Virus record (IMG/VR): IMGVR_UViG_3300030372_004501
Coordinates: 1 to 61,655 of that record
From: a virus
Lineage: Duplodnaviria > Caudoviricetes
Length of the DNA: 61,655 nt
Direction: 5' to 3' (one strand)
Below are positions 2,494 to 41,490 of this stretch, piece by piece. Every line of letters begins with the position of its first letter. The stretch's first letter is position 1. The position numbers were made by a program, and so were the translations under genes. The notes below the pieces were generated by a model. That model ran no database searches. It was given only the letters and a program-made list of their open reading frames with translations, and was not told where the DNA came from.

Positions 2494-3495
2494 ATGGCTT
2501 CAACATATTCAAGTTCACTAAACCTAGAGCTTCAAGCAACTGGTGAAAACTCAGGAACATGGGGAACAATAACAAATAACAATTTACAAAAGCTGGAATC
2601 AGCTATTAAAGGATATGTATCTGTAGCTGTTGCTAGCACTTCTGATTCTTTGACTGCATCTGATGGTTCTACAACAGATGAACAAAGTAATGCGATAATT
2701 AAATTAACAGGCACACTTACTGGTAATACAACCATGCAGTGTGAAGCTGTAGAGTCCTGGTATATTGTTGATAATGCTACAAGCATGGGGACATATACAT
2801 TAGGATTTAAACCAGCAGGTGGAACAGCTGCTTCGCTTGTATCAAGTTCAAAACATTTACTTTATTCTGACGGATCAACTATGTTTGATGTATTAGCGGA
2901 TTGTGGAAACATTTCAGCAAATGGTACATTGACTGTGGCAGGTAATGTTGAATTCGATGGTGGTAGTTTTATATTTAATCAATCATCAGCAGACGTTGAT
3001 TTTAGAATTGAAGGAAACGGAGATGCTAACTTATTTTTTACTGATGCAGGAAACGATCGTGTTGGAATTAAAACAGGTTCACCTTCAACAGAATTACACG
3101 TTGTAGGTGGAGTTAAAGCAACAGGTAGTATTGATTTTGATGGTGGTGGATTTGTATTTAATGAATCTCACGCTGCAGTTGATTTTAGAATAGAAACAGA
3201 TACTTTAACACATGCTTTTTTTGCTGATGGTTCTGCTGATAAAATTGGTTTTGGTACATCTACACCTGCAGATGCAAGTGTAGAAATTAATCAAGCTAAT
3301 TCTTCTGGTGCTATTGCATGTTTATCATTAGATCAAGACGATACAGATCAACCTTTTATTAAATTTGATGGAACAACTGCTTCTGATCAAAGTAAAAGTC
3401 TTTCAACAGATACAAGTGTAGGATCATTAACAGGACATATTCGTGTTGATATTAACGGAACGGATTTTTGGATACCTTACTACGCAACTAACTAG
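2494..3495 (+). CDS. Tail fibre / fibre-attachment protein
   Basis: N-terminal MASTYSS..LELQATGENSGTWG motif common in marine podovirus tail proteins; repeated NxxxxxxDFRIE units. Confidence 0.7.
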   Translation: MASTYSSSLNLELQATGENSGTWGTITNNNLQKLESAIKGYVSVAVASTSDSLTASDGSTTDEQSNAIIKLTGTLTGNTTMQCEAVESWYIVDNATSMGTYTLGFKPAGGTAASLVSSSKHLLYSDGSTMFDVLADCGNISANGTLTVAGNVEFDGGSFIFNQSSADVDFRIEGNGDANLFFTDAGNDRVGIKTGSPSTELHVVGGVKATGSIDFDGGGFVFNESHAAVDFRIETDTLTHAFFADGSADKIGFGTSTPADASVEINQANSSGAIACLSLDQDDTDQPFIKFDGTTASDQSKSLSTDTSVGSLTGHIRVDINGTDFWIPYYATN

Positions 3496-33853: not shown

Positions 33854-33940
33854 TTATTTCCCCCTGAAATATGTTTTTTCAGGATGGTATATTAACCATT
33901 TCTTTATTCTTGTCCATATAATTCTTATTCGTTGTGTCAT
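33854..33940 (-). CDS. 28-aa peptide
   Basis: MTQRIRIIWTRIKKWLIYHPEKTYFRGK*; AAGG RBS; first ORF of minus operon. Confidence 0.5.
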   Translation of the reverse strand: MTQRIRIIWTRIKKWLIYHPEKTYFRGK

Positions 33941-33948
33941 GTAGCCTT

Positions 33949-33987
33949 AAAACGGGACCTCCCTGCAACGAATGTGCAGGAAAGTCC
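33949..33987 (-). terminator. Intrinsic terminator-like/attenuator hairpin in leader of minus-strand operon
   Basis: Minus strand GGACTTTCCTGCA-CATTCGT-TGCAGGGAGGTCC (13 bp incl. G-U) followed by CGTTTT. Confidence 0.55.
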
Positions 33988-34028
33988 ACCGAGATGAAAT
34001 GAAGTTGAGAACTTTATATGTACAGGAT

Positions 34029-34511
34029 GTTCTCGTTTTGTGCAAGAAAAAAATGCTTGACAGACTTATCCACAATTTAATGTTAAATAAATGTTCATAT
34101 TGACAAGATTTTTGATAAAAAACCTTCAAAAAAGTACACATATAGGTATGAAAAGATATTTTGCACTATCTCACCTTAAATTTATATAACATAGTATAAC
34201 CAATTAACCAGGAGTTAAATATGCCTAGAATTAGAAGTAAGAAAAAAGAAAAATTATCCCTTGAGGTTTATAAATTATCAACCGAGCTTATTCATACAGA
34301 ATCAGTCCAGAGCATGACCGATGCAATGCACACTGTTTATTGCTGGGGACTAGCTAATGCCCCTATTCATAAATTAAGGGCTTGGAAGAAGGAATTTAAA
34401 AAAGATATTAAAGATTATGAAGAAATGCTAGCAAGACCTGATGATTGTGAATAACCTGTGGATAACTTTATATAATTTGTCCTTGTTTTGTTCATAATGA
34501 TATGGTATAAT
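34029..34511. promoter_or_regulatory. Divergent control region with DnaA boxes, SOS-like boxes and sigma70 promoters
   Basis: TTATCCACA 34066; TGTGAATAA 34446 and TGTGGATAA 34457; GTTC-N7-GTTC-like boxes at 34029, 34082, 34479; TTGTTT(34483)-N17-TATAAT(34506). Confidence 0.65.
34221..34454 (+). CDS. Hypothetical protein
   Basis: AGGAG RBS; first plus-strand gene after divergence point. Confidence 0.6.
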   Translation: MPRIRSKKKEKLSLEVYKLSTELIHTESVQSMTDAMHTVYCWGLANAPIHKLRAWKKEFKKDIKDYEEMLARPDDCE

Positions 34512-34516
34512 ACGTG

Positions 34517-34708
34517 TAAATGAGGATGGTGCAACATTCTCGGAGTATGGCTGAACAACTGTAACAAAGTAGTAAGGCACACTTAAAGGGAAGTACGGAC
34601 ATGTGTCTGAGGTAACTGAGGGTGGTACTGAAGTACTAGTTAACATTTAGGAAATGTTGATTTGTCGGGAAAAGGTTGGGGGTAGTCAAAGAATCCCCCT
34701 ACTCACTT
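34517..34708 (+). ncRNA. Candidate multi-stem structured ncRNA (~190 nt)
   Basis: Starts just after strong promoter; at least six helices, long-range closing stem GAGTA/TACTC, possible pseudoknot TGGCT/AGTCA; no ORF. Confidence 0.6.
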
Positions 34709-34720
34709 AATGAGATTGAG

Positions 34721-34981
34721 ATGATAGAGAAATTATTAGATATGTTAAGTATTAAAAGATTTGAAGAGTGGATTAATAAATCCAAGAAAGGCGATAAGGT
34801 TACTTATTACCGTGGGTATATTATGGCACCACATTTACAGAAATTTTCACCAACCACAGATGATAGACGAGTTAATAGTTTAAAAAAGCGTATACAACGT
34901 GCATATGACCATAATTTTATTACACTTGTACAAAAAAGACACGGCGATTTGGACTATGAATACATAGCAGTGAGAGTATAA
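34721..34981 (+). CDS. Hypothetical protein
   Basis: ATG at 34721 (or 34742) in frame with listed ORF; YYRG...YEYIAVR. Confidence 0.6.
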   Translation: MIEKLLDMLSIKRFEEWINKSKKGDKVTYYRGYIMAPHLQKFSPTTDDRRVNSLKKRIQRAYDHNFITLVQKRHGDLDYEYIAVRV

Positions 34982-35079
34982 TGTGGGGCATGTTTTGGTT
35001 TTCTATGCTTCCAATAAAAATTGCTTTGGTATGTCTAGTGGCATATTACATTTATAGCTGGTTAATAGGATTACTATGA
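34981..35079 (+). CDS. 32-aa membrane peptide
   Basis: MWGMFWFSMLPIKIALVCLVAYYIYSWLIGLL*; coupled to both neighbours. Confidence 0.6.
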   Translation: MWGMFWFSMLPIKIALVCLVAYYIYSWLIGLL

Positions 35080-35585
35080 GTAAATTTGATAATTATATAA
35101 TGGAGCATTATGAAAGCCAGGAGGAAAGTATGGCAGATACACCAGAGGAAAAGAAATATATAGCCGAGCGTGATAAGTTAAGAAAAGAAGAACCACGTAA
35201 GTGGGACCACATACAAAAAGAACGTGATAAAATACGCGAGAAGAAAGCGTCCCAGGCCCTTGCAGATCAAGAAGCAATAAAAGATTTAGACTATAGCCCA
35301 CCAACAGTAACATTTGAACAACCACCAGAAGGCACAGAAATAGGTGGCATGAAGTCATTTCATGTTGAGAAAGGTGAAGAAAAGAACACATATGAGATTA
35401 CAACTAAGCGTGAGATAACATTTCAATATTTAATTCGTGCTAAGAATGAAGAAGATGCAATGATACGTACACTTGGTTTTGTCAGTAAAGATGGTAGTGG
35501 GCAGCGTGAAGATGTTAAGCGTCCTATGTATTCATCAAGACCTTTTATACGTGAATGGATTGATAAAATAAAGAAGGTTGGATGA
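35076..35585 (+). CDS. Hypothetical protein
   Basis: ATGA-coupled ORF in early operon. Confidence 0.65.
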   Translation: MSKFDNYIMEHYESQEESMADTPEEKKYIAERDKLRKEEPRKWDHIQKERDKIREKKASQALADQEAIKDLDYSPPTVTFEQPPEGTEIGGMKSFHVEKGEEKNTYEITTKREITFQYLIRAKNEEDAMIRTLGFVSKDGSGQREDVKRPMYSSRPFIREWIDKIKKVG

Positions 35586-36229
35586 GCGAAAATTTAGAAT
35601 TAAAATATGATATATATCAACCATTTGGGCCGAGTATATTAAAAACTACATTGCCACAAGGATTTGTTAATCTATTGAACATTGAAGCTGATCGTATATT
35701 ACATGATGAGAAATTAAGTAAGGAACATGATTGGTCACATAATCTTGCAGGTAATGTTAAAAAAGAAGTTGCAATTGATCAGAATAAAATTCCAAATTTC
35801 CCAGAGTTTATGATTACAATGGCAAAGGCATATTATAAACATACTATTAATGCAGAGCCAGTAGAAGGAAGTAAAGTTGGTTTTCGTGTGTGGGTAGTAT
35901 CACAATACGCAGGTGATTTTAATCCAATGCACATTCATGATGCTAATTTATCTGGTGTTGCATTTTTAAAAATACCACCAGGATTTGATAAAGAATATGA
36001 AAAAGAGGACCATCATCCAACAGCTGGATGTTTAGAGTTTCTTGGTTCAATGCCCAACCATTTTGCAAGACATAGTTATATTGCAAAACCAAAAATTGGA
36101 GATTTTTATTTGTTTCCTTCATGGCTTACACACCAGGTGTATCCATTTAGGTCAGAAGGTGAGCGACGTTCGCTTGCATTTAATATACACTTTACAATGG
36201 ATAAGCCAATAAAAGGTGTAAACGTCTAG
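35582..36229 (+). CDS. 2OG-Fe(II) oxygenase-like protein
   Basis: FNPMHIH..LSG, GDFYLFPSWLTH.VYPF, ERRSLAFN. Confidence 0.85.
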   Translation: MSENLELKYDIYQPFGPSILKTTLPQGFVNLLNIEADRILHDEKLSKEHDWSHNLAGNVKKEVAIDQNKIPNFPEFMITMAKAYYKHTINAEPVEGSKVGFRVWVVSQYAGDFNPMHIHDANLSGVAFLKIPPGFDKEYEKEDHHPTAGCLEFLGSMPNHFARHSYIAKPKIGDFYLFPSWLTHQVYPFRSEGERRSLAFNIHFTMDKPIKGVNV

Positions 36230-36239
36230 GAGAAATAGA

Positions 36240-36353
36240 ATGAAGATAGAAGTTATAAGTAAAGATGCTGTTTATATTACTATAAATGGAACTGTTTATT
36301 ACATTGATGATTCAACTGGTGAAAGATTGATGAAAAAATGGAAGGAGAAGTAG
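36240..36353 (+). CDS. 37-aa hypothetical protein
   Basis: MKIEVISKDAVYITINGTVYYIDDSTGE...; AGGAG RBS (not in ORF track). Confidence 0.6.
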   Translation: MKIEVISKDAVYITINGTVYYIDDSTGERLMKKWKEK

Positions 36354-39467: not shown

Positions 39468-39870
39468 ATTTCTTGTTGATAACCTGTGGATAAGTCGCAG
39501 CTGGTTCCCCGGCGCGCGATCCCGTTAACCTGACAAGTTAAAACTCCCAAAACCCTTATTTTCCGCCAAAAATTTCTTGATGCCTTCCCTAAATTAGCCC
39601 GGGCCCTTCACCAGGAAGCTGAGATGCCAGTCCCAAACTCCCAAACTCCCCAATGTTTCTCCCGTTTTTTTGCGAATCTTGTTCCTGCAGCTCCACGCAC
39701 CGGGCGCGCCGGGGATTCCCGATCAGAGATGATTCGTACCAGTTGGGTAGCTGTCCAAGTTCCGTGAAGCTCGAAAAAGTTATCCACAATTAATTTGAAA
39801 TAGTTGTATATTTCGTGATTCGGAAATGTTATAATAAGATAATTCATTAAGAATTAGAAATGGAGTTACT

Positions 39871-40074: not shown

Positions 40075-40382
40075 ACCATAGGTTTGGGGGATTCAAACTC
40101 CCCCAAACTCCCTTGTGTATAAACTGTGGATATCCTGTGGATAAGTCGCGCCCGGGAAACCAGGGCCCGCTGCGCAAACTCCCAAACTCCCTTTCGTACA
40201 AAAACCTAAGGTTTCTGGGATTTTTTGTGGGCTGCTTCAGGCACCGGGCGCGCCGGTACTTCTTCCGCTTCCTTCGGAATAAAATGGCAGATTTGTTGAT
40301 GTCCCGGGTTGACAATTGGCGTTCCAGGAGCTATAAACGCAGATGCAGCAGGAGCTGCAGGTTGGGAAGAAAGAGAGATGAC

Positions 40383-41238: not shown

Positions 41239-41490
41239 AATTAATTCCCTTTCTATTTCTAGCTCATTAGTAGCATGAACACATAACCATTGATATAGTT
41301 AATTGTATTAAGTTGTGGATAACTATGTCAATAGCTAATAGTAGTAAGTTGTGGATAACCTGTGGATAACTCGCCCGGGATACTCCTTATTGCGGCTCGC
41401 TTCGCTCGCCGCCCGGTCCCAATCTTCGATGGGGGTAACCCCCCCTTTTGCGTCTACCTCCCCTAGAGCCGACGAAGATTGAGTTTGAGA

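What the first reader, a model, noticed from the sequence alone, without database searches (positions are those of the whole stretch)
34517..34708. Highly structured ~190-nt RNA with long-range closure and possible pseudoknot
Directly after TGgTATAAT come: hairpin TGAGGATG/CATTCTCG (34521-34542); GAGTA (34543) closing with TACTC (34700); TGGCT (34548) complementary to AGTCA (34684) in the loop of the GGGGG/CCCCC hairpin (34678-34699); short ACTG/TAGT hairpin; AGGCACA/TGTGTCT; TGGTAC-TGAA-GTACTA; TTAACATTT-AGG-AAATGTTGA. Many G-U pairs favour the plus strand, it is G-rich relative to the genome, and there is no ORF. This complexity suggests a ribozyme, riboswitch or RNP scaffold. I do not recognise the family. 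It sits under both DnaA and SOS-like boxes.
Basis: partly seen in the sequence, partly recalled or inferred. Interest (0 to 1): 0.78.

Follow-up and report, generated by a model that had tools for sequence, protein, structure and literature searches.

The report
Uncatalogued manA-like leader RNA in pelagiphage
The flagged stretch is a real, tightly folded RNA of about 190 bases at the start of a transcript of a marine phage related to phages of Pelagibacter; it is a distant, uncatalogued cousin of the known manA RNA, which a 2026 preprint reports to build RNA-only cages, so it is a new variant and not a new class.

Summary
The RNA is real. It lies at about 34518-34709 (+), just after an extended -10 promoter and 16-37 nt before a small gene. 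Pattern scans fetched more than 160 distinct relatives from marine viral contigs. On two separate sets, 95.7% and 93.6% of pair cells form standard pairs, against 36-49% when partners are slid. Compensatory changes occur in 31 and 42 of 52 pairs.

Two do not hold. The proposed UGGCU:AGUCA pseudoknot is not supported. GCU pairs locally, and the last loop covaries with the 3' foot of the preceding hairpin.

The family is recognisable. Rfam manA (RF01745) matches full length at 36.1 bits, below its 55.2 cut-off. My model finds the canonical manA of cyanophage P-SSM2 in return. The ends are shared and the middle differs.

The host phage resembles HTVC023P-type pelagiphages. New features are a self-complementary loop (UGCA in 154 of 166) and cassette-like gain and loss. 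Function is untested: a leader whose fold or self-assembly tunes the downstream gene, or an autonomous assembling RNA. This scan has noted other manA relatives elsewhere.

The parts
34476..34511 (+). Conserved promoter block ending in the extended -10 TGGTATAAT (34503-34511). The transcript is inferred to start near 34518.
   Evidence: The block is nearly identical in relatives L002-L004, L006 and L007, with or without the RNA. The simple sigma-70 scan did not call it because the -35 is weak. -10-like hexamers are enriched 5-24 nt upstream of the first hairpin in 164 relatives. The start site is not mapped.
34518..34709 (+). The whole structured RNA, a manA-like variant of type A.
   Evidence: The Rfam manA hit covers 34522-34709 at 36.1 bits. 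My model R1 covers 34511-34712 at 222.9 bits. Covariation is shown.
34522..34541 (+). P0, the 5' hairpin. Stem 34522-28/34535-41, loop GUGCAA containing the self-complementary UGCA.
   Evidence: All 7 pairs covary. The loop holds UGCA in 154 of 166 distinct relatives, UCGA in 5 and CAUG in 2.
34543..34547 (+). P1 5' strand, GAGUA, the closing stem.
   Evidence: It pairs with 34700-34704. All 5 pairs show compensatory changes, with 100% and 99.2% of cells paired.
34548..34579 (+). J1/2 (UG) and P2. P2a is 34550-52/34576-78. The internal loop is GAACA/AA. P2b is 34558-62/34569-73.
   Evidence: This is the most conserved sequence of the family (invariant columns). It aligns to the CUGAAUAA...UAAGG hairpin of manA. 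The third P2a pair covaries in A5: UG 61, UA 14, AU 9, GC 4.
34580..34624 (+). P3, a long irregular hairpin. P3a is 34580-84/34620-24, P3b is 34587-88/34616-17, P3c is 34596-600/34605-09.
   Evidence: Nine of 12 pairs (A4) and 11 of 12 pairs (A5) show double changes. It takes the place of the three-hairpin subdomain of canonical manA.
34626..34635 (+). P4, UAC-UGAA-GUA. A conserved 3-bp hairpin or motif.
   Evidence: The sequence is conserved, but no pair shows double changes in A4 and 15 cells are mismatched. Support in A5 is weak. The structure is uncertain.
34636..34668 (+). P5. The extension is 34636-37/34667-68 and 34639/34666. The 9-bp stem is 34640-48/34652-60. A conserved UUUGU bulge lies at 34661-65.
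   Evidence: The extension pair 34636:34668 reads CG 67, GU 14, GC 4 with none unpaired. All 9 stem pairs show double changes in A5.
34657..34662 (+). Site B, UUGAUU, the 3' foot of P5. It is complementary to AGUCAA of the last loop.
   Evidence: The complementarity is kept through more than 20 different sequence pairs, for example CCAAU:AUUGG, CCAAC:GUUGG, GGUCAUG:CAUGAUU and UCAUCC:GGAUGA. The observed mean score is 5.33 against 4.34 +- 0.10 when partners are permuted, and 0 of 2000 permutations reach it.
34669..34677 (+). J5/6, GAAAAGGUU, a conserved single-stranded joiner.
   Evidence: Invariant or nearly invariant in 75 sequences.
34678..34699 (+). P6, the last hairpin. Stem GGGGG/CCCCC, loop L6 UAGUCAAAGAAU (34683-34694). 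It abuts the P1 3' strand.
   Evidence: Two of 5 pairs covary and 100% of cells are paired. It aligns to the last hairpin of manA.
34700..34704 (+). P1 3' strand, UACUC.
   Evidence: See the P1 5' strand.
34721..34981 (+). Downstream gene, 86 aa from ATG 34721. The start shared with relatives is ATG 34742. Function unknown.
   Evidence: No Pfam or PHROG family matched. Relatives follow the RNA in 46 of 146 loci that have an ORF. The start ATGTTAAGTAT is conserved in L004 and L007, which lack the RNA.

Best explanation
Positions 34518-34709 (+) encode a structured RNA of about 190 nt. It is transcribed from its own extended -10 promoter and forms the 5' leader of a small gene of unknown function.

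Its architecture has these parts:
- A 5' hairpin (P0) with a self-complementary loop.
- A 5-bp closing stem (P1).
- Inside P1: a strongly conserved hairpin (P2), a long irregular hairpin (P3), a small UGAA hairpin (P4), a bulged hairpin (P5) and a last hairpin (P6) stacked against P1.

It belongs to an uncatalogued branch of the manA RNA superfamily. That branch is widespread in marine viral contigs, including relatives of HTVC023P-type pelagiphages.

Shown: the fold, the kinship, the leader position and the cassette-like gain and loss.

Inferred: how it works. My best guess, at about 45%, is that the folded domain tunes stability or translation of the gene 16-37 nt downstream. Its conformation or self-association would set the state, through the palindromic P0 loop and the L6-to-P5-foot pairing that competes with the base of P5. 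A small-metabolite sensor is less likely.

The confidence given here (0.45) is for the whole statement including this mechanism. For the identity alone (a real folded RNA related to manA) I would say about 0.85.
For: Fold: 95.7% and 93.6% of pair cells are standard pairs on two different sets of contigs. Compensatory changes occur in 31 and 42 of 52 pairs. Slid controls give 36-49% paired.

Kinship:
- Rfam manA matches positions 1-192 of its model at 36.1 bits, E 1e-7. A type-A relative scores 39.5 bits.
- In return, R1 finds the canonical manA of P-SSM2 (181.6 bits to Rfam) at 22.8 bits, E 6e-7, with the next best hit at 6 bits.
- Shared parts are P0, P1, the UG joiner, the CUGAAYAA/UAAGG hairpin, the last hairpin next to the P1 3' strand, and the CAC tail.

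Leader position: 146 of 167 distinct members have an ORF starting within 90 nt, and 104 of those start 15-24 nt after P1.

Promoter: the promoter block is conserved in relatives.

Switch or assembly features:
- The P0 loop keeps a 4-6-nt palindrome in 161 of 166 members even where the letters change (UGCA, UCGA, CAUG).
- L6 covaries with the same 3' foot of P5 that the P5 5' strand pairs with.

Cassette behaviour: the same promoter and gene occur without the RNA in L004, L003 and L007.

Phage group: TerL is 66-69% identical to HTVC027P and 023Pt_psg01, and PolA is 44-51% identical to four HTVC023P-type and related records.

Literature: manA RNAs self-assemble through kissing loops in vitro (preprint 10.64898/2026.07.01.735769, passages and section 8 read).
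Against: - The score is below the Rfam cut-off. Type-B and more divergent members do not reach manA at E 0.01-0.1, so the kinship rests on the two ends of the molecule.
- Seventeen of 167 members have no ORF within 90 nt. One of them, in the published phage 023Pt_psg01, lies opposite to all flanking genes. A distant variant sits in a tRNA array. These cases argue for a function independent of a downstream gene.
- I found no terminator and no consistent pairing with the ribosome-binding site (and inspection).
- The gene is expressed from the same promoter without the RNA in relatives.
- Transcription is not shown. Two metatranscriptome runs hold contigs that cover only the element, at depth 2-3.5, and DNA carry-over cannot be excluded.
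- The covariation counts come from alignments fitted to my own model.
Confidence: 0.45

Rival explanations
1. It is an autonomous RNA whose job does not concern the downstream gene. It would be a self-assembling particle or scaffold like the manA cages, or a decoy for a host factor. It rides at the 5' end of a transcript only to be made early and in quantity.
For: - Seventeen of 167 members lack a downstream ORF.
- The 023Pt_psg01 copy has its own TTGACA/TATATA promoter and points against all neighbouring genes.
- A distant variant lies among 8 tRNA genes.
- It is gained and lost as a cassette between a fixed promoter and a fixed gene.
- The downstream genes fall into 30 or more unrelated families.
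- The loop palindrome is conserved.
- Canonical manA forms decamers and a 60-mer in vitro (preprint, passages read).
- RNA-library contigs cover the element alone (a weak hint).
Against: - 146 of 167 members are followed by an ORF. The spacing is narrow, with 104 ORFs starting at 15-24 nt. That is not expected if position were irrelevant.
- No terminator or processing site separates the RNA from the gene.
- Assembly was shown only in vitro at high RNA and Mg concentrations, and only for canonical manA.
Confidence: 0.33
2. It is a classical riboswitch. The core binds a small metabolite or ion, and the L6/P5 alternative pairing is the switch.
For: - Many invariant unpaired nucleotides sit in a multi-helix junction.
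- Two mutually exclusive pairings both covary.
- It occupies a 5' UTR position.
- Weinberg et al. 2010 rated manA a probable riboswitch (PMC2864571, passages read).
Against: - The downstream genes share no function. None of the 9 representatives passed a curated Pfam cut-off. One, L038, has weak HTH-domain hits in Pfam and weak PHROG hits to transcriptional regulators.
- No expression platform was found: no terminator and no SD sequestration.
- Some members have no gene to control.
- In the papers I could search, no ligand has been reported for manA since 2010.
Confidence: 0.12
3. It is a passive protective or translation-enhancing 5' structure with no sensing and no assembly.
For: - It begins within a few nucleotides of the inferred transcript start with a stable hairpin.
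- It sits before many different genes, like a generic expression module.
Against: A 190-nt fold with about 60 invariant positions, a conserved palindromic loop and a covarying tertiary pairing is far more than 5'-end protection needs.
Confidence: 0.08
4. It is not an RNA feature at all. The conservation would reflect a DNA-level element (operator or origin near the DnaA-like boxes) or a small protein gene.
For: - TTATCCACA boxes lie just upstream.
- Minus-strand ORFs of 55 and 72 aa overlap the region.
Against: - Compensatory base-pair changes include many G-U pairs that would be A-C on the other strand.
- Orientation relative to the promoter and the downstream ORFs is fixed.
- The substitution pattern preserves helices and not codons.
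Confidence: 0.02

Closest known systems
manA RNA motif (Rfam RF01745; Weinberg et al. 2010, PMC2864571; cryo-EM preprint 10.64898/2026.07.01.735769)
   Same: - A 5' hairpin comes first. A closing stem then encloses a multi-helix core.
- A UG joiner is followed by a hairpin with the CUGAAYAA / UAAGG internal loop.
- The last hairpin, GGGUA...AAUCCC-like, directly abuts the 3' strand of the closing stem, and a CAC tail follows.
- The size is about 190 nt.
- It is found in marine phages, mostly just upstream of genes.
- The last loop is complementary to the preceding hairpin.
- The covariance-model hits are reciprocal.
   Different: - It scores 36.1 bits against a cut-off of 55.2.
- The central three-hairpin subdomain and the P7/P8 arm are replaced by one long irregular hairpin plus P4 and P5.
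- The last loop pairs with the 3' foot of the P5 stem and not with a hairpin loop.
- The 5' hairpin loop is a conserved palindrome. It is GACG in P-SSM2.
- The phage is related to Pelagibacter phages, not cyanophages.
- The downstream genes are unknown small proteins, not mannose, nucleotide or photosynthesis genes.
HIV-1 dimerisation initiation site and other kissing-loop dimerisation hairpins (recalled; not fetched or compared here)
   Same: A hairpin loop carries a 4-6-nt self-complementary sequence. It stays self-complementary when the letters change.
   Different: Here it is one element of a large fold in a phage RNA. Dimerisation has not been tested.
wcaG RNA motif (RF01761)
   Same: It is a marine phage RNA described together with manA (PMC2864571). 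A weak hit of 30.2 bits lies near a distant family member in L181.
   Different: It has no similarity to the window's RNA.

Membership tests
manA RNA (Rfam RF01745) | The covariance-model score reaches the curated gathering threshold of 55.2 bits. | tested here: not met
   The window scores 36.1 bits and has 0 matches at gathering. Eighteen relatives' loci gave 0 matches at gathering. The best relative scores 39.5 bits, and nine other loci gave none at E 0.01. Five divergent loci gave none at E 0.1.
manA RNA (Rfam RF01745) | A 5' hairpin is followed by a closing stem that encloses the core. | tested here: met
   P0 and P1 align to model positions 1-16 and to the bracketed outer stem. Covariation is 7 of 7 and 5 of 5 pairs.
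manA RNA (Rfam RF01745) | A UG joiner and a hairpin with the conserved CUGAAUAA / UAAGG internal loop. | tested here: met
   The window's GGCUGAACAA...GUAAGGC aligns to it with high posterior probability. These columns are invariant in 75 relatives.
manA RNA (Rfam RF01745) | A central subdomain with three hairpins, and the following two-tier arm (model positions about 66-160). | tested here: not met
   The Rfam alignment leaves this part unaligned or deleted. The comparative structure has one long hairpin P3, plus P4 and P5. For the canonical layout, compare P-SSM2.
manA RNA (Rfam RF01745) | The last hairpin, with a GGGUA...AAUCCC-type loop, abuts the 3' strand of the closing stem. | tested here: met
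   Shown by the alignments. P6 is 100% paired.
manA RNA (Rfam RF01745) | The last loop is complementary to the loop of the preceding hairpin. This is the 'pseudoknot?' of 2010 and the L8-L9' kissing loop of the preprint. | tested here: inconclusive
   An analogous covarying complementarity exists, but it is to the 3' foot of the P5 stem and not to its loop. The L8/L9 complementarity is visible in P-SSM2 and in the Rfam consensus. Sequence cannot tell whether the pairing here is within one molecule or between molecules.
manA RNA (Rfam RF01745) | Homo-oligomerisation into pentamer-based closed assemblies. | not testable with these tools
   Known only from the preprint (passages and section 8 read). 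Its supplements and figures were not available to me.
manA RNA (Rfam RF01745) | Position in the 5' UTR of a gene. | tested here: met
   146 of 167 distinct members have an ORF within 90 nt. Seventeen do not, and four have too little downstream sequence.
Riboswitch (generic) | Association with genes of one pathway, and an expression platform. | tested here: not met
   There are 30 or more unrelated downstream protein families. None of 9 representatives passed a curated Pfam cut-off, and one has weak HTH hits. No terminator-like site lies in 34150-35100.
Self-cleaving ribozymes, tRNA or tmRNA | A match to a known catalytic or tRNA-like family. | tested here: not met
   No such Rfam match up to E 10. 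ARAGORN found 0 genes in the window. I could not test cleavage.

The most novel reading that the evidence does not exclude
The RNA is a concentration-sensing, self-assembling leader. As it accumulates during infection, the palindromic P0 loops kiss. L6 of one molecule then invades the foot of P5 of a neighbour, which is why both partners of that foot covary. This builds closed manA-like oligomers or cages in infected Pelagibacter cells. The assembly state would decide whether the attached early gene is translated, or would sequester a host factor. If so, the in vitro manA cages would have a natural biological setting in some of the most abundant viruses of the ocean.
Probability: 0.15. Interest if true: 0.85.

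Novelty: new variant of a known kind. Interest (0 to 1): 0.56.

Why it matters
manA was for sixteen years an orphan riboswitch candidate. In 2026 it became, according to the preprint's own highlights, the first natural RNA reported to form an icosahedral 60-mer (preprint passages read). This finding shows that the fold has an uncatalogued branch that Rfam's threshold misses. That branch is present in more than 160 distinct sequences from marine viral contigs and in a published HTVC023P-type genome, where the stretch is unannotated. It offers three things:

1. A natural set of core-preserving, periphery-swapped variants, useful for learning which parts encode the fold and which encode assembly.
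2. Two testable sequence signatures of RNA-RNA association: the palindromic loop, and the three-way covariation at the foot of P5.
3. A genetic setting that bears on the open question of what manA RNAs do. The RNA is a removable cassette between a fixed promoter and a fixed gene, and it is sometimes free-standing.

It is not a new class. This scan has already met other uncatalogued manA relatives on other DNA.

Tried and rejected
Rejected as drawn. The complementarity is 6 bp in type A and in GGUCA-type loops, but only 2-3 bp in type B, below the mean for shuffled loops. GCU is taken by P2a, whose third pair covaries. L6 follows another partner.
No better than shuffles.
- **RNAalifold on the plain MAFFT alignment A2.** It recovered only 23 pairs, because the two types are offset by three columns at P6 and P1. 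I therefore built a model from the type-A rows and re-aligned.
- **DNA similarity to 50,697 phage records.** Only four chance-level pieces of 37 bits or less. Megablast of 10 kb found nothing.
- **Other Rfam hits.** Yfr20 (E 1.4) and TtnuCD10 (E 9.1) are chance.
- **Pairing between the RNA and the ribosome-binding region.** I looked by eye at the P0 3' strand against GGAGAA, and at the freed P5 5' strand against the tail. Neither is conserved across types (alignments). No script was run for this.
- **An outer helix joining the 5' lead and the 3' tail.** It is present, with covariation by eye, in type B only (CGAAAG/CUUUCG, CAAAAG/CUUUUG). It is absent in the window's type.
- **Published relatives.** HTVC023P, HTVC027P and DSL-LC04 have no family member at E 0.01. 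Syn9 has no manA.
- **Sequencing runs.** Only contigs were available. X1 and X2 (RNA libraries, two studies) cover only 34531-34706 and 34543-34705, at depth 2 and 3.5. X3 and X4 are of unknown kind. The parts without cover, and the 30-100-fold higher summed depth on the element in X3 and X4, show sharing among many phages and not expression.
- **Genome collection scan.** Eleven of the 14 hits were chance matches by R1.
- **Papers.**
  - Searches for 'manA motif', 'manA RNA', 'manA riboswitch' and 'RF01745' listed nine papers. I opened three, and in them found no ligand and no pelagiphage variant.
  - The search for 'pelagiphage' with RNA terms listed only its top 15 of 6,661, and none of those holds the word pelagiphage.
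  - PMC9599517 has 0 occurrences of riboswitch, noncoding, non-coding, manA or Rfam in its main text.
Additional files 1-3 of PMC2864571, Table S7 of PMC9964418 and Figures S13-17 of the preprint may bear on which variants are already listed.
Full report
**What is there.** The window is a virus record of 61,655 bases, estimated 92% complete, with 32-40% G+C.
- Its large terminase is 68.6% identical to phage 023Pt_psg01, 66.0% to Pelagibacter phage HTVC027P and 56.2% to HTVC023P.
- Its DNA polymerase A is 44-51% identical to 023Pt_psg01, DSL-LC04, HTVC023P and HTVC027P.
- It is therefore a relative of the HTVC023P-type pelagiphages.
- The flagged stretch lies between a 77-aa ORF (34221-34454) and an 86-aa ORF (34721-34981). 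Neither has a Pfam or PHROG family.
- A 2OG-Fe(II) oxygenase gene and a ParB-like gene follow further downstream.
- The stretch is preceded by TGGTATAAT (34503-34511).
- It is G-rich, at 28.1% G against 20.1% for the window.

**Is it more than chance?**
- On its own the sequence folds only marginally better than shuffles. The plus strand gives -50.5 kcal/mol, z -1.69, with 10 of 200 shuffles as good. The minus strand gives z -0.40.
- The decisive evidence is comparative. The downstream protein led to six related viral contigs. The conserved promoter is present in all that reach upstream. The RNA is present in two (L002, L006) and absent in three (L003, L004, L007).
- Three degenerate patterns taken from conserved single-stranded parts then fetched 109, 68 and at least 120 stretches from the viral collection.
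- Seven of the first set were false hits and were dropped.
- I built a covariance model, R1, from 43 type-A sequences and a structure I derived by hand.
- R1 found exactly one match in 91 of 94 sources. The three misses are the relatives that lack the RNA.
- R1 found a match in 94 of 95 further sources, with scores running from 222 down to 25 bits.

**The fold.**

| Measure | A4 (91 rows) | A5 (89 distinct rows, other contigs) |
|---|---|---|
| Pair cells forming standard pairs | 95.7% | 93.6% |
| Pairs with compensatory double changes | 31 of 52 | 42 of 52 |
| Covariation score | 0.449 | 0.585 |
| Covariation score, slid partners | 0.06-0.11 | 0.06-0.11 |

- With partners slid by 1-3 columns, 36-49% of cells are paired.
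- These alignments were fitted to the model, which favours it. Even so, the margin is large. The closing stem shows five of five covarying pairs with no or almost no broken cell (GAGUA/UACUC, CCUCC/GGAGG, CUCUC/GAGAG and others).
- The structure in window coordinates:
  - P0: 34522-28/34535-41.
  - P1: 34543-47/34700-04.
  - P2a: 34550-52/34576-78. P2b: 34558-62/34569-73.
  - P3: 34580-34624, in three segments.
  - P4: 34626-28/34633-35, with a UGAA loop.
  - P5: 34640-48/34652-60. It has a three-pair extension (34636, 34637, 34639 with 34668, 34667, 34666) across a conserved UUUGU bulge.
  - P6: 34678-82/34695-99.
- P4 is supported by conservation only.
AGGCACA/TGTGTCT and the outer part of TGGTAC/GTACTA are 70.7% paired against 69.4% in shuffles.

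**The pseudoknot.** UGGCU and AGUCA are indeed complementary in the window, and a G-U pair extends this to 6 bp. Three findings count against the pairing:
- The 5' partner is invariant, so it cannot covary.
- Its GCU belongs to P2a, whose third pair changes compensatorily in the wider set: UG 61, UA 14, AU 9, GC 4.
- In type-B relatives the complementarity shrinks to 2-3 bp.

Instead, the centre of the last loop follows the 3' foot of P5:
- Observed pairs include AGUCAA:UUGAUU or UUGACU, CCAAU:AUUGG, CCAAG:CUUGG, CCAAC:GUUGG, GGUCAUG:CAUGAUU, GGUCACA:UGUGAUU, UCAUCC:GGAUGA and AAUCAUUU:AAAUGAUU, among others.
- Over 69 distinct loop and site combinations the mean helix score is 5.33. It is 4.34 +- 0.10 when sites are permuted among sequences, and 0 of 2000 permutations reach the observed value.
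- That test does not correct for relatedness.
- The same nucleotides also pair, with covariation, with the 5' strand of P5. The two pairings exclude each other within one molecule.
- That pattern fits a conformational switch. It also fits pairing between molecules.

**What it is.**
- Rfam at its curated thresholds finds nothing in the window or in 18 relatives' loci.
- At relaxed thresholds one family stands out. manA (RF01745) matches over its full model at 36.1 bits, E 1e-7, against a cut-off of 55.2.
- A canonical manA from Prochlorococcus phage P-SSM2 scores 181.6 bits.
- My model finds that same place at 22.8 bits, E 6e-7, with the next best hit at 6 bits.
- The aligned parts are the two ends: P0, P1, the UG joiner, the hairpin with the CUGAAYAA / UAAGG internal loop, the last hairpin abutting P1, and the CAC tail.
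- The middle differs. Canonical manA has a three-hairpin subdomain and a two-tier arm, where this family has P3, P4 and P5.
- Type-B and more divergent members are not detected by the Rfam model at E 0.01-0.1.
- I therefore file it as a structural variant related to manA and not as a member under Rfam's definition.

**What is known of manA.**
- Weinberg et al. 2010 described it as a probable riboswitch. They found it in marine metagenomes, in T4-like cyanophages and in two gamma-proteobacteria, usually in 5' UTRs, with a questionable pseudoknot (PMC2864571, passages read).
- A July 2026 preprint reports cryo-EM structures of manA RNAs. They form octamers, decamers and a 60-subunit icosahedral cage from pentamers held by kissing loops: L5-L7', L8-L9', L3-L8' and a GNRA contact (10.64898/2026.07.01.735769; passages, section 8 and outline read; figures and supplements not seen).
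- In P-SSM2 and in the Rfam consensus, the last loop (ACAG) is complementary to the loop of the preceding hairpin (CUGU). That appears to correspond to L8-L9'. The numbering is my inference.
- The L6-to-P5-foot pairing found here sits at the equivalent place.

**A second association signature.**
- The P0 loop holds UGCA in 154 of 166 distinct members, mostly as UUGCAA or GUGCAA.
- Five members have UCGA, two have CAUG, and five have no palindrome.
- One palindrome replaced by another is what a symmetric loop-loop contact between two copies would select.
- The preprint's text does not mention palindromes.

**Setting.**
- Of 167 distinct members with the P1 3' strand in the locus, 146 have an ORF starting within 90 nt. 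For 104 of these the start lies 15-24 nt after P1.
- In the window the distance is 16 nt to ATG 34721, and 37 nt to the conserved ATG 34742.
- The ORFs fall into 30 or more unrelated families. The largest has 46 members (the window's protein) and the next has 35 (a 110-aa protein).
- None of the nine representatives passed a curated Pfam cut-off. One has weak helix-turn-helix hits.
- Seventeen members, mostly the divergent ones, have no such ORF.
  - In the published phage 023Pt_psg01 the RNA (59.1 bits) lies in an unannotated 408-nt gap. It has its own TTGACA/TATATA promoter and is on the strand opposite to all flanking genes.
  - In a 94.6-kb contig a distant variant (24.7 bits) sits within a tRNA array.
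- In L004 the same promoter is followed after about 24 nt by the same gene start, with no RNA. L003 and L007 carry other inserts in that slot.
- The RNA thus behaves as a removable cassette.
- A pattern scan of one genome per prokaryotic species gave 14 stretches, three of which R1 confirmed:
  - A contig of an uncultured alphaproteobacterial single-cell genome.
  - Two short contigs of metagenome-assembled genomes.
- The element is therefore essentially viral, as far as that pattern can see.

**Expression.**
- Only assembled contigs of public runs could be laid.
- In two RNA libraries from two studies, the only parts of a 2.4-kb stretch that are covered are 34531-34706 and 34543-34705, at depth 2 and 3.5.
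- That is compatible with a stable, abundant RNA. It is equally compatible with pooling of reads from many phages that share the element, or with DNA carry-over.
- Transcription is not shown.

**How it most likely works.**
- Shown: a conserved multi-helix fold, kinship with manA at both ends, a promoter-proximal leader position with narrow spacing in most members, cassette behaviour, a palindromic loop, and two competing covarying partners for the foot of P5.
- Inferred: the RNA folds as an independent domain, and its state affects the gene behind it. The state would be P5 closed against L6 engaged, or monomer against oligomer. I put this at about 45%.
- About 33% goes to an autonomous assembling or decoy RNA for which the leader position only provides early, strong synthesis.
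- About 12% goes to a small-molecule riboswitch.
- The rest goes to passive stabilisation or to error.

**Novelty and score.**
- The family is not in Rfam 15 as such.
- The nine papers listed for the manA terms, of which I opened three, and the main text of the paper on uncultivated HTVC023P-type genomes do not describe it. The search for 'pelagiphage' with RNA terms returned nothing relevant.
- It is a new variant of a known kind.
- This scan's earlier notes, which are unchecked AI notes, already list several uncatalogued manA relatives on other DNA. They also list a first-reader note on another genome with the same GAGTA/TACTC closure.
- The discovery of 'a manA cousin' is therefore not unique within the scan.
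- What this case adds is a large, well-aligned branch in relatives of abundant pelagiphages, plus two concrete, testable signatures of RNA-RNA association.

Noticed in passing
window 34446-34465, 39474-39493, 40114-40144, 41350-41369 and elsewhere: TTATCCACA (the DnaA-box consensus) occurs 12 times exactly. With up to one mismatch it occurs 40 times, against 23.0 +- 4.8 expected, and 0 of 100 shuffles reach 40. Several copies are in tandem at 11-bp spacing in non-coding zones. One pair lies about 50-70 nt upstream of the RNA's inferred start.
   Followed up: partly
L181:2198-2432 (94.6-kb IMG/VR contig); also L206:4011-4245: A distant manA-like element (R1 24.7 and 25.6 bits) lies inside a tRNA gene array, with 8 tRNAs in 4 kb of L181. 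It has no downstream ORF. A weak wcaG hit (30.2 bits, below the cut-off of 42) lies at L181:425-530 in the same array.
   Followed up: partly
L135:1292-1504 (-) = MW574966.1 10191-10403, phage 023Pt_psg01: A published complete HTVC023P-type genome has an unannotated 408-nt gap. It holds a divergent family member with its own TTGACA/TATATA promoter, on the strand opposite to all ten annotated flanking genes.
   Followed up: partly
L003:~100-350, L007:~2950-3000, L004:~2960-2990: The slot between the conserved promoter and the conserved start of the 86-aa gene is variable. It holds this RNA in some phages, about 24 nt in L004, and unrelated inserts of about 100-170 nt in L007 and L003. Rfam finds nothing in L003 at gathering thresholds. 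L007 was not scanned against Rfam.
   Followed up: no
Type-B relatives, e.g. L054:2921-3126, L060:473-678: Type-B members have an extra outermost helix joining the 5' lead and the 3' tail (CGAAAG/CUUUCG, CAAAAG/CUUUUG, ACAAAG/CUUUGU). It encloses P0 and P1. The window's type lacks it.
   Followed up: partly
window 33900-36300 in runs X3 and X4: In two runs of unknown kind, the summed contig depth on 34467-34709 is 30-100 times that of the flanking genes, and it is zero on 34143-34466. Many co-occurring phages therefore share the RNA element but not its left neighbour. One joined form skips 34108-34474.
   Followed up: no
L138:461-660 (contig of an uncultured alphaproteobacterial single-cell genome): A type-A copy (221.9 bits) lies on a 13.3-kb contig of a single-cell genome labelled Alphaproteobacteria. 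This is compatible with an infected SAR11-type cell. The contig's other genes were not examined.
   Followed up: no
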